Positions 1 through 1,637 of a stretch of 1,637 nt of DNA are shown in pieces (position 1 is the first letter of the stretch; the number at the start of each line of letters is the position of its first letter). Origin of the DNA: Naegleria gruberi (lineage: Eukaryota); the NCBI GenBank assembly GCA_000004985.1, contig GG739361.1. The stretch is one strand, 5' to 3'. The notes under the pieces are model-generated. The model saw only the letters and a program-made list of their open reading frames with translations. It was not told the DNA's origin and ran no database searches. A program made the position numbers and the translations under genes.

Positions 1-945
1 TTTAGTTTTCACTGATTCTTGATCAAAATATTTAACTCCAAAACTGTGACAATAAGACAAACTCACTGTCTTATTTGTAATTTTTGTGATAGCTCCATGG
101 ATTGTCTTATCTGAAATTTGCTTTTTAGCATCTCTTTGGGATCTAATATCAGTAATTACAGAAACAATTTCATCACTTGTTAATTTTAGAGATTTTCTAC
201 CTCTTGCTAATGTTTCTTTTCCAGTCAAACTACCATTATCAAATTGTTTCAATAATCTTCCTAACTGATCAAGGGTAATCTTATTTTGCTTGCAATATAC
301 TGATTTAGATCCATACTCTCTTTTTGGATACTTTGTGGTGTATTGTATGGCATGTGTATACATTTCTTCTCGTGTTAGTTGTTTGTAAGAGGTAACCTGT
401 TTATTGTTGAAAGATAAAACAGGCATCACTTTAGTATTTGATGATGAAGTGCCAGTATCTGACGAATTGTTGGTAATTTCCTTTTGTTTGATGGTCCATT
501 CATAAATCAAAATATCAGCTTTTTGCATAATATTGTCCTTCGGAGATGGTGATGAAGAAAATAATTTAGAAATAATTTCTTGTACCATTGTTTCTTTAGA
601 TGATGATAATCCAAGTGTAACTTTAAATTCTTCTTTCAATAAATCTCTCAAGATTCTATTTGATAATAACCGTAACTTTGTTGATAATTTCTTGCATGCT
701 GCATCATAGGCTTCGAATGATGAAGTAACTGTTTGTGTGACATCTTGGGTGCCATTTTTTTGAGTTGTTTGAGTTAAGGAGCTTCTTTCATCCGGAGATT
801 TTTCTTGTCTTGCATATTGAGTTGTTGATGTTGCCCAATCATTGAATTCTAAAGAGTCCAGCTTTTCAATATCAGTTGAAGAAACTGTTTTTGGTGCTGT
901 GTTGTGTGTGGTTGAGAGTTTAATGGCCTTTCTAATTCTTCTCAT
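1..945 (-). CDS. 3'-truncated protein-coding gene (315 codons in window). Hypothetical protein with a Ser/Thr-rich low-complexity N-terminal half and a basic, helix-rich C-terminal segment. First ATG is at 945..943 and the frame stays open to position 1. Translation begins MRRIRKAIKLSTTHNTAPKTVSSTDIEKLDSLEFNDWATSTTQYARQEKSPDERSSLTQTTQKNGTQDV... and ends ...YCKQNKITLDQLGRLLKQFDNGSLTGKETLARGRKSLKLTSDEIVSVITDIRSQRDAKKQISDKTIHGAITKITNKTVSLSYCHSFGVKYFDQESVKTK (continues beyond window)
   Basis: I translated the minus strand by hand in the frame whose + strand codons start at 1,4,7... No + strand TTA/CTA/TCA triplet (a minus-strand stop) occurs in that frame from 1 to 1068, which is 356 consecutive sense codons. 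The first minus-strand stop (+ TTA) is at 1069-1071. For ~32% GC DNA this is very unlikely by chance. Codon usage is typical yeast: AGA Arg, TTA/TTG Leu, CAA Gln, GAA Glu, TCA/TCT Ser. The ATG at 945 is preceded on the minus strand by AAAAAAAAACAAT, giving A at -3 in an A-rich leader, which is the yeast start context. It is absent from the ORF track presumably because it has no in-window stop. Confidence 0.72.
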   Translation of the reverse strand, partial: MRRIRKAIKLSTTHNTAPKTVSSTDIEKLDSLEFNDWATSTTQYARQEKSPDERSSLTQTTQKNGTQDVTQTVTSSFEAYDAACKKLSTKLRLLSNRILRDLLKEEFKVTLGLSSSKETMVQEIISKLFSSSPSPKDNIMQKADILIYEWTIKQKEITNNSSDTGTSSSNTKVMPVLSFNNKQVTSYKQLTREEMYTHAIQYTTKYPKREYGSKSVYCKQNKITLDQLGRLLKQFDNGSLTGKETLARGRKSLKLTSDEIVSVITDIRSQRDAKKQISDKTIHGAITKITNKTVSLSYCHSFGVKYFDQESVKTK

Positions 946-1108
946 ATTGTTTTTTTTTGAATTGATTATGTTGATTTCGATCTTGTGCTTTTTATCGGAA
1001 AGGTTCAATTTCGTTTTCAAATTCGAACTGGAAAATCCATAAAAATCAAGAATTGTAAAGTCCTTTAATTACGTTTTTATTAAAAAATAAAATTTATTCT
1101 AACCGCGA

Positions 1109-1120
1109 AACTCGCGAGTT
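1109..1120. promoter_or_regulatory. 12-bp perfect palindrome AACTCGCGAGTT overlapping a CGCGAAA motif (1104-1110). Candidate dimeric transcription-factor site, MCB/SCB-like (MBF/SBF G1/S type) CGCG element
   Basis: Seen directly: aaccgcgaaaCTCGCGAGtt. AACTCGCGAGTT equals its own reverse complement. It is the only CpG-dense patch in an otherwise very AT-rich intergenic region. CGCGAAA matches the Swi4/Mbp1-type core CGCGAAA (SCB CRCGAAA / MCB ACGCGT family) known from S. cerevisiae. The functional assignment is inference. Confidence 0.3.
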
Positions 1121-1184
1121 GTTGTGTGATAATTCGTACTTTGTTGTGTAGCAATTCGTGGTTTGTTGTGTGATAATTCGTACT
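1119..1184. repeat. Tandem direct repeat, 3 copies of a 22-bp unit. Copy 1 is 1119-1140 TTGTTGTGTGATAATTCGTACT, copy 2 is 1141-1162 TTGTTGTGTAGCAATTCGTGGT, copy 3 is 1163-1184 TTGTTGTGTGATAATTCGTACT. Copies 1 and 3 are identical (the identity extends 2 bp further to 1186). Copy 2 differs at 5/22 positions
   Basis: Direct alignment of the sequence. The conserved cores are TTGTTGTGT and AATTCGT. Copies 1 and 3 each carry a GATAA core (TGATAATT). The array lies 174-241 bp upstream of the minus-strand ATG. Confidence 0.9.
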
Positions 1185-1591
1185 TTATTAAAAATTAACA
1201 GTAATTAAATTTTTCTTCTTTGATTCAGCTCCGATGTATTTTTATTGATTAAATCTACCTAAAACATTCAGGCAGCAGCCAAACAATAATAAAAAATGTA
1301 CAACATTTTCCTACACTGTGTTGGCATTATTTCCTTGATGAATTATTACACACTCTAAGGCTGATATTTACATGGTATCGGAGGAAAGATATTTTGTTCT
1401 TTATTCCTCATAACATTTAGCCAAAACAATATAGAATCATAAGCTATTGTTGTTACTAACAAAAAACAATTCATACCAACTCTCTCGATTGTTGAATATT
1501 CCAAGATGATTCACTGAAGTTTACCATCTTCTCAATGTCATCATCCATATTCACTGCCAACTATTATCAGCTGTAGAACTTTCAGAAAAAA

Positions 1592-1637
1592 ATGGTCATT
1601 CGTACAGAATCTTCAACGTCTCTGTCGAGTGTATTAC
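1592..1637 (+). CDS. Possible 5' end of a divergently transcribed gene (MVIRTESSTSLSSVL..., 15 codons, runs off the window)
   Basis: The ATG at 1592 is the first ATG after an in-frame TAG (1574-1576). It is preceded by CAGAAAAAAATGG (A at -3, A-rich leader), a good yeast initiation context. The frame is open to the window end. It is too short to assess coding statistics. Confidence 0.2.
   Translation, partial: MVIRTESSTSLSSVL

What the first reader, a model, noticed from the sequence alone, without database searches (positions are those of the whole stretch)
1119..1186. Three tandem 22-bp repeats in the promoter region with identical outer copies and a diverged middle copy
Perfect 24-bp identity between 1119-1142 and 1163-1186 flanks a 5-mismatch middle copy. 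The conserved cores TTGTTGTGT and AATTCGT(AC) are what a reiterated transcription-factor site (UAS array) would show. Each outer copy carries a GATAA core, the GATA-factor recognition motif, 44 bp apart in the same orientation. Identical outer copies with a diverged centre suggest either selection on two sites or recent unequal exchange or conversion. The array sits 174-241 bp upstream of the minus-strand ATG.
Basis: partly seen in the sequence, partly recalled or inferred. Interest (0 to 1): 0.6.

Follow-up and report, generated by a model that had tools for sequence, protein, structure and literature searches.

The report
Short tandem repeat upstream of transposase-like gene
The three 22-base repeats are real, but they lie upstream of a transposase-related gene on a small contig of the amoeba Naegleria gruberi (not a yeast), nothing supports a GATA-factor site array, and the repeat is most likely an ordinary local duplication whose function could not be tested.

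Summary
Tandem Repeats Finder reports one array, 1119-1186, period 22, 3.1 copies. The outer copies are identical over 24 nt and the middle copy matches 17/22. The array lies 174-241 nt upstream of the minus-strand ATG at 945.

The context is different from the one assumed. The window is a 1637-bp contig of Naegleria gruberi, not a yeast. The downstream ORF belongs to a small Naegleria family. Its longer members carry an IS630/Tc1/mariner-like DDE domain and a C-terminal Ulp1-like protease. Other members look decayed, as transposon copies do.

The GATA reading is weak. The middle copy lacks GATAA, which sits in the variable part of the unit, and GATAA is not over-represented in this AT-rich window.

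No further copy of the unit was found in the window, in JGI metagenomes or in viral contigs. The N. gruberi genome could not be reached, so the regulon and orthologue tests stay undone.

Best reading: a locally born, two-step tandem duplication in the 5' flank of a transposase-family gene. Binding by a host factor or by the element's own DNA-binding domain stays possible, because the five differences between copies cluster (p about 0.02). Interest is low.

The parts
1119..1140 (+). Repeat copy 1 (type A): TTGTTGTGTGATAATTCGTACT
   Evidence: TRF consensus unit. Exact 22-mer match.
1141..1162 (+). Repeat copy 2 (type B): TTGTTGTGTAGCAATTCGTGGT. It matches 17/22 and lacks GATAA.
   Evidence: Register table. 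Repeat family D1.
1163..1186 (+). Repeat copy 3 (type A, identical to copy 1) plus TT. It is identical to 1119-1142 over 24 nt.
1109..1120 (.). Perfect 12-nt palindrome AACTCGCGAGTT. Its first 10 nt also read as a degenerate half-unit (AAYTCG...), and its last 2 nt are the first 2 nt of the array. With CCGCGAAA (1103-1110) it is the only CG-rich island in the flank.
   Evidence: Reverse-complement identity and period-44 alignment. CpG positions. Family D1 extends to 1109.
1033..1061 (-). Upstream block at -88 to -116 from the ATG. It is shared 28/29 nt with the paralogous upstream region in metagenome contig L001 (39-67). It may be a core-promoter or 5'-UTR element, or a conserved part of a repeated element.
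   Evidence: Sequences. Alignment A2.
1..945 (-). 5' part (315 codons, cut by the window edge) of an ORF of a Naegleria transposase-related family. It corresponds to the N-terminal, presumably DNA-binding, region of those proteins.
   Evidence: Translation. 100% match to N. gruberi P0001, with paralogues P0002 and P0004. P0005 and P0006 found by full HMMER scan. Residues 77-314 align to P0006 74-321. P0006 220-492 matches the IS630 family transposase model at E 1.4e-14, below its curated cut-off.

Best explanation
The array is a locally generated tandem duplication, made by replication slippage or unequal exchange in two steps. It lies in the AT-rich 5' flank of a transposase-family gene on a small, probably repeat-derived, contig of Naegleria gruberi.

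Step 1 (inferred): an old 22-nt duplication diverged into unit types A and B, which now match 17/22. Step 2 (inferred): a recent period-44 event or a conversion produced the third copy, which is still identical to copy 1 over 24 nt.

The array is not a yeast-type GATA upstream activating sequence (UAS). Any cis effect would come only from multiplying whatever site the ancestral 22-mer carried, with a 22-nt spacing of about two helical turns. No function is demonstrated.

My estimates: origin by local duplication about 0.95; any sequence-specific binding role about 0.35-0.4; binding by a GATA factor below 0.05.
For: - Head-to-tail copies without spacers or indels, and the only tandem array in the window.
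- The 24-nt perfect identity at period 44 ends abruptly on both sides, beside a copy that differs at 5 of 22 positions.
- No significant further copy of the unit on either strand of the window. The best partial match, inverted at 1335-1356, is equalled or beaten in 19 of 200 shuffles.
- The 22-mer is absent from JGI metagenome contigs. The degenerate core pattern gives only 58 single, non-tandem hits in viral contigs.
- Distant relatives of the gene on L060-L062 have no tandem repeat upstream.
- Host and gene context: N. gruberi, a 1637-bp contig. The family has decayed or truncated members, and its longer members carry an IS630/Tc1/mariner-like DDE domain plus a Ulp1 domain.
- GATAA is not enriched and is missing from copy 2.
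Against: - The five A/B differences fall in two runs, leaving TTGTTGTGT and AATTCGT intact. Under independent point substitutions, two or fewer runs has probability 0.024, which fits constrained binding cores. This rests on a single pairwise comparison, and multi-nucleotide mutation events would also explain it.
- A simple unequal crossover between A and B gives AAB, ABB or a hybrid, never ABA. The ABA order therefore needs a less simple history.
- The position is promoter-like: about 200 nt upstream of the ATG, next to a CG-rich palindrome, an AT-rich stretch and an upstream block conserved with a paralogue.
- The decisive data, meaning other copies and loci in the N. gruberi genome, could not be examined.
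Confidence: 0.5

Rival explanations
1. The array is a set of reiterated binding sites for a host transcription factor (not GATA) in the promoter of the minus-strand gene. The bipartite cores TTGTTGTGT and AATTCGT, repeated every 22 nt, would place the sites on one face of the helix.
For: - The cores are unchanged in all three copies, and all five differences fall in two short spacers (p about 0.024 for that clustering).
- The array lies 174-241 nt upstream of a start codon that is conserved among paralogues (MRRIRK).
- It sits just distal to a CG-rich palindrome, an AT-rich stretch and a block conserved with a paralogue.
Against: - There are only two independent unit sequences, because copies 1 and 3 are identical, so the 'conservation' is one pairwise comparison.
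- No second occurrence of the unit is known anywhere.
- No transcription start or expression data are available.
- No motif library was available to name a factor.
- Nothing is known here about Naegleria promoters.
Confidence: 0.2
2. The array consists of subterminal, iteron-like binding sites for the element's own transposase N-terminal DNA-binding module. It would mark the left-end region of an IS630/Tc1/mariner-like DNA transposon and serve in transpososome assembly or autoregulation.
For: - The adjacent ORF is homologous to the N-terminal region of P0006, which matches the IS630 family transposase model (E 1.4e-14) and DDE_3 (E 5.8e-5).
- Residues 253-309 fold as a confident three-helix unit.
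- Family members look like decaying transposon copies.
- The window is an orphan 1.6-kb contig, as repeats often are in draft assemblies.
- From general knowledge, a distance of 170-240 nt between end-proximal sites and the transposase ATG is typical of Tc1/mariner elements, some of which carry extra internal direct repeats (IR/DR elements).
Against: - The element ends are unknown.
- No inverted copy of the unit in the window is significant.
- Related contigs L060-L062 show neither an upstream array nor clear terminal inverted repeats.
- IR/DR direct repeats are widely spaced, not tandem.
- The window ORF is cut before any DDE domain, so it may be a truncated or domesticated derivative.
- The fold search of the model was not significant.
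Confidence: 0.17
3. The array is an assembly or sequencing artefact: a mis-joined or collapsed repeat on a low-coverage orphan contig.
For: The contig is only 1637 bp and unplaced. The outer copies are perfectly identical.
Against: The diverged middle copy and the clean 22-nt register without indels are not what a mis-join produces. An artefact would not create a 17/22 copy between two identical ones.
Confidence: 0.03

Closest known systems
Short intergenic tandem duplications (minisatellite-like arrays made by replication slippage or unequal exchange)
   Same: Head-to-tail units of 22 nt with a low copy number. Old diverged copies and recent identical ones occur together. The array lies in AT-rich non-coding DNA and has no other copy in the accessible sequence.
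   Different: Polymorphism among strains, the usual hallmark, could not be checked. The differences between units are clustered rather than scattered.
Internal or subterminal transposase-binding direct repeats of DNA transposons, such as the IR/DR ends of Sleeping Beauty and Tc3-type Tc1/mariner elements or the subterminal repeats of hAT, CACTA and P elements (from general knowledge)
   Same: Repeated short motifs lie within a few hundred nt upstream of a transposase-family ORF whose N-terminus is the DNA-binding part.
   Different: IR/DR sites are about 165-200 nt apart, not tandem. No terminal inverted repeat, target-site duplication or opposite-end copy has been seen here. The catalytic domain is not within the window.
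Fungal GATA-factor UAS arrays
   Same: Two TGATAA motifs lie in the same orientation upstream of a gene.
   Different: The host is Naegleria, not a fungus. The middle unit lacks the motif. The motif lies in the variable part of the unit. GATAA frequency is within chance for this composition.
Transposases fused to a Ulp1 (Peptidase_C48) domain: Ginger1 and Mutator-like elements (PMC2836005)
   Same: Family members P0006 and the L060 ORFs carry a DDE transposase domain followed by a C-terminal Ulp1-like domain.
   Different: The DDE domain here is IS630/Tc1/mariner-like, not integrase- or MuDR-like. This concerns the gene family, not the repeat array itself.

Membership tests
GATA-factor UAS array (yeast type) | The host is a fungus or yeast with GATA-factor nitrogen or iron regulons | tested here: not met
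   The ORF is 100% identical to an NCBI 'predicted protein, partial [Naegleria gruberi]' on a 1637-bp contig. All named relatives are from N. gruberi.
GATA-factor UAS array (yeast type) | The GATAA core is present in each reiterated unit and is part of the conserved portion | tested here: not met
   Copies 1 and 3 have TGATAA, but copy 2 has TAGCAA. The motif spans unit positions 10-12, which are the variable ones.
GATA-factor UAS array (yeast type) | GATAA is more frequent than composition predicts | tested here: not met
   GATAA occurs 10 times against 5.6 +/- 2.4 expected, and 35 of 500 shuffles reach 10. TGATAA occurs 7 times against 2.4, and 6 of 500 shuffles reach 7. However, three of those seven lie in the coding region and two are copies of each other.
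GATA-factor UAS array (yeast type) | A GATA zinc-finger factor of the host binds the sites | not testable with these tools
   No Naegleria proteome or binding data were reachable. The literature search gave nothing on Naegleria GATA factors.
Slippage-born tandem repeat (minisatellite-like) | Head-to-tail copies in constant register without spacers | tested here: met
   TRF reports period 22, 3.1 copies and 0% indels. The spacing is 22 and 22.
Slippage-born tandem repeat (minisatellite-like) | The unit is confined to this locus | tested here: inconclusive
   There is no other significant copy in the window, none in JGI metagenomes, and only single chance hits in viral contigs. The host genome itself was not searchable.
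Slippage-born tandem repeat (minisatellite-like) | Copy number is polymorphic among strains or alleles | not testable with these tools
   No second N. gruberi assembly or read set was reachable.
Subterminal transposase-binding repeats of a DNA transposon | The adjacent gene encodes a transposase of the element | tested here: inconclusive
   The window ORF aligns to the N-terminal region of P0006 (E 2.2e-8 library-wide, 27% identity). P0006 matches the IS630 model (E 1.4e-14, below cut-off) and DDE_3 (E 5.8e-5). The window ORF is cut before the catalytic region, and it has no Pfam or NCBIfam hit of its own.
Subterminal transposase-binding repeats of a DNA transposon | The repeats lie inside the element, between a terminal inverted repeat and the transposase ATG, with the motif also at the other end | not testable with these tools
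   The element ends are not defined, and no other genomic copies were reachable. The in-window inverted partial copy at 1335-1356 is not significant.
Subterminal transposase-binding repeats of a DNA transposon | Related elements carry comparable arrays upstream of the transposase gene | tested here: not met
   L060-L062 have no tandem repeat in the 300 nt upstream and no convincing terminal inverted repeats. L001 stops about 28 nt before the array position. The relatives are distant (39% identity over 130 aa), so this test is weak.

The most novel reading that the evidence does not exclude
The 22-nt units are iteron-like binding sites for the N-terminal DNA-binding module of the adjacent protein. 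They would mark the subterminal region of an undescribed Naegleria DNA transposon family whose full-length transposases combine an IS630/Tc1/mariner-type DDE domain with a C-terminal Ulp1 protease. In that case the array would be a tandem form of the spaced IR/DR sites known from Tc1/mariner elements.
Probability: 0.15. Interest if true: 0.45.

Novelty: new member of a known kind. Interest (0 to 1): 0.2.

Why it matters
On present evidence it matters little. It is one small tandem duplication in the flank of a transposon-related gene of a protist whose promoters are essentially uncharacterised.

It would matter modestly in two cases:
- If the cores proved to be a recurrent Naegleria cis-element, since hardly any are known.
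- If they proved to be binding sites that define the ends of an undescribed IS630/Tc1/mariner-Ulp1 transposon family.

The practical gain from this check is the corrected context: Naegleria rather than yeast, a transposase-family gene, and no case for GATA.

Tried and rejected
1. Fetching N. gruberi genomic DNA around the paralogues P0001, P0002, P0004 and P0006, and around two small window ORFs: none is on record.
2. Exact 22-mer in JGI metagenome contigs: 0 hits.
3. Protein-guided loci in metagenomes and in viral contigs: none confirmed.
4. Degenerate core pattern in viral contigs: 58 single hits, none tandem, consistent with chance for 16 specified bases.
5. The conserved upstream block in viral contigs: 0 hits.
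6. Extra copies of the unit inside the window: the best is an inverted 13/15 match at 1335-1356, not significant (19 of 200 shuffles).
7. A structured RNA: there are no Rfam matches better than E 0.7, and none near the array.
8. A coding reading of 946-1637: no long ORF in any frame.
9. Pfam and NCBIfam on the window protein itself: nothing significant.
10. The AlphaFold model was poor (pLDDT 43.6). Foldseek against the PDB gave no hit at E <= 0.001; the top hit is a DUF3349 helical bundle.
11. A profile of the family against PDB sequences: nothing.
12. Literature on Naegleria promoter motifs, GATA factors and transposons: nothing usable.
13. A SAP-motif reading of residues about 95-130, made by eye: not supported by Pfam, so dropped.
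14. Simple unequal crossover as the origin of the ABA order: rejected on logic, because it yields AAB, ABB or a hybrid.

Full report
**Observation**

The window contains one tandem array by Tandem Repeats Finder: 1119-1186, period 22, 3.1 copies, 78% matches, no indels, score 101, consensus TTGTTGTGTGATAATTCGTACT.
- Copies 1 (1119-1140) and 3 (1163-1184) are identical. The identity extends to 24 nt (1119-1142 = 1163-1186) and stops at both ends.
- Copy 2 (1141-1162) matches 17/22. All five differences sit at unit positions 10-12 (GAT>AGC) and 20-21 (AC>GG).
- The exact 22-mer occurs twice in the window, against none in 200 dinucleotide-preserving shuffles.
- A gap-free repeat search extends the register 10 nt to the left: AACTCGCGAG (1109-1118) against AATTCGTGGT, 6/10. 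The structure can therefore also be read as two 44-nt higher-order units with a perfect 24-nt centre.

**Where the window comes from**

The minus-strand ORF (315 codons, cut by the window edge) is 100% identical to an NCBI 'predicted protein, partial [Naegleria gruberi]'. The longest contig of that protein is 1637 bp, which is the window itself. The host is therefore a heterolobosean amoeboflagellate, not a yeast. This removes the basis for the yeast GATA/UAS framing and for the YeTFaSCo comparison.

**What the gene is**

The ORF has no Pfam or NCBIfam hit of its own, but it has relatives.
- N. gruberi paralogues: P0002 (53% identity) and P0004 (94% identity over about 88 residues).
- A near-copy of P0002 on an ENA metagenome contig (P0003, locus L001).
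- Two more found by a full HMMER scan of 1.84 billion representatives: P0005 (E 2.3e-9) and P0006 (920 aa, N. gruberi, E 2.2e-8).

Window residues 77-314 align to P0006 74-321. Three results link P0006 to transposases:
- Residues 220-492 match the NCBIfam IS630 family transposase model at E 1.4e-14 (54 bits, below the equivalog cut-off).
- Residues 442-514 match Pfam DDE_3 at E 5.8e-5.
- By eye, the catalytic spacing is DD34D.

P0005, and the ORF that follows it on L060, show the same order of parts: an N-terminal helical region, then DDE, then a C-terminal domain. That C-terminal domain reaches the Pfam Peptidase_C48 (Ulp1) threshold (21.6 bits against 20.7). As a two-sequence profile it also hits XopD and SENP8 in the PDB at E about 2e-3.

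Other members look decayed. P0004 lacks the segment with the first catalytic aspartate. The L001 copy breaks off inside the helical region.

The AlphaFold model of the window protein is poor overall (pLDDT 43.6). The exception is a three-helix unit at 253-309 (pLDDT 66-83). The fold search gave nothing significant.

Conclusion, partly by transitive homology: the window ORF is the N-terminal, presumably DNA-binding, part of a member or derivative of a Naegleria IS630/Tc1/mariner-like transposase family. An orphan 1.6-kb contig fits repeat-derived sequence.

**The flank**

No long ORF exists in 946-1637 in any frame, and only a 15-codon open stretch from ATG 1592 runs to the window end. In gene orientation the flank reads, from distal to proximal:
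- the array, at -241 to -174;
- a CG-rich island (CCGCGAAA at 1103-1110, and the perfect palindrome AACTCGCGAGTT at 1109-1120);
- an AT-rich stretch;
- a block at 1033-1061 that matches the paralogous upstream region of L001 at 28/29 nt;
- about 88 nt to the ATG.

This is a plausible promoter layout, but it is inference only, because no start-site data exist. L001 ends about 28 nt short of the position where the array would align. Whether the paralogue has an array is therefore unknown.

**The GATA claim**

GATAA occurs 10 times on both strands, against 5.6 +/- 2.4 in shuffles, and 35 of 500 shuffles reach 10. TGATAA occurs 7 times against 2.4, and 6 of 500 shuffles reach 7. Three of those seven lie in the coding region and two are the duplicated copies.

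The motif lies in the part of the unit that varies and is absent from copy 2. I rate a GATA-factor role below 0.05.

**Is the unit found elsewhere?**
- Inside the window, the best additional match is an inverted 13/15 stretch at 1335-1356. It is equalled or beaten in 19 of 200 shuffles.
- The 22-mer is absent from JGI metagenome contigs.
- A degenerate core pattern gives 58 single, non-tandem hits in viral contigs, as expected by chance.
- Distant relatives on L060-L062 have no upstream tandem repeat and no clear terminal inverted repeats.
- N. gruberi genomic DNA could not be obtained by any route.

**How the array arose and what it does**

The array must have arisen by local duplication. The 17/22 divergence between types A and B, next to a perfect 24-nt identity at period 44, implies at least two events of different age. 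Simple unequal crossover between A and B cannot give the order A-B-A, so the second event was a period-44 duplication with later loss, or a conversion.

The five A/B differences form two runs. Under independent point substitutions the probability of two or fewer runs is 630/26334 = 0.024. This is the only positive hint of constraint on the cores TTGTTGTGT and AATTCGT. It rests on one pairwise comparison, and multi-nucleotide mutation events would also explain it. The 22-nt period is about two helical turns, so any bound proteins would sit on one face of the helix.

My weights:
- 0.5: a functionally unproven, probably neutral or incidentally cis-acting local duplication.
- 0.2: a host-factor site array, not GATA.
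- 0.17: binding sites for the element's own N-terminal domain (subterminal repeats).
- 0.03: an artefact.

**Comparison with known systems and novelty**

The array behaves like an ordinary short intergenic tandem duplication. It resembles transposon subterminal repeats only in its position next to a transposase-family ORF. The defining features of that class could not be tested: location inside the element, presence of the motif at the termini, and binding. It fails the tested defining features of a GATA UAS.

It is a new instance of a known kind. The more unusual item seen on the way is the gene family itself, an IS630/Tc1/mariner-like DDE domain fused to a Ulp1 protease. Ulp1 fusions are described for Ginger1 and Mutator transposases (PMC2836005). 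I found no description of one for this superfamily, but my literature check was limited.

**Verdict**

Interest is low (0.2).

Noticed in passing
window 1103-1120: This is the only CG-rich island in a flank of about 29% GC. It holds CCGCGAAA (minus strand TTTCGCGG, E2F-like by eye) and the perfect 12-nt palindrome AACTCGCGAGTT, which overlaps the first 2 nt of the array. Twelve of the window's 24 CpG dinucleotides lie in 978-1179.
   Followed up: partly
window 1033-1061 and L001 39-67: A 29-nt upstream block, at -88 to -116 from the ATG, is shared at 28/29 nt between paralogues whose proteins are only 53% identical. It may be a core-promoter or 5'-UTR element, or a conserved part of a repeated element. 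It is absent from viral contigs.
   Followed up: partly
P0006 (N. gruberi, 920 aa); L060 301-1122 and 1119-2504: The full-length family members combine an N-terminal helical (helix-turn-helix-like) region, an IS630/Tc1/mariner-like DDE domain (DD34D by eye) and a C-terminal Ulp1/Peptidase_C48 domain. Ulp1 fusions are described for Ginger1 and Mutator transposases. I found no description of one for this superfamily.
   Followed up: partly
window 1592-1637 (+): A possible divergent ORF starts at ATG 1592 and stays open for 15 codons to the window end. It contains ATTCGTAC (1598-1605), the only copy of that array 8-mer outside the array.
   Followed up: no
P0004 (N. gruberi, 371-kb scaffold) and L001 900-1010: Both are decayed or truncated copies of the family. 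P0004 is 94% identical to window residues of about 210-297, but it has an unrelated N-terminus and lacks the segment with the first catalytic Asp. The L001 copy diverges abruptly from P0002 after ...GKEKLS.
   Followed up: partly
L060 2-268 (-): On the metagenome contig, an unrelated divergent ORF starts only about 32 nt from the start of the transposase-like ORF. That copy lacks both the about 185-residue N-terminal extension and any long 5' flank.
   Followed up: no
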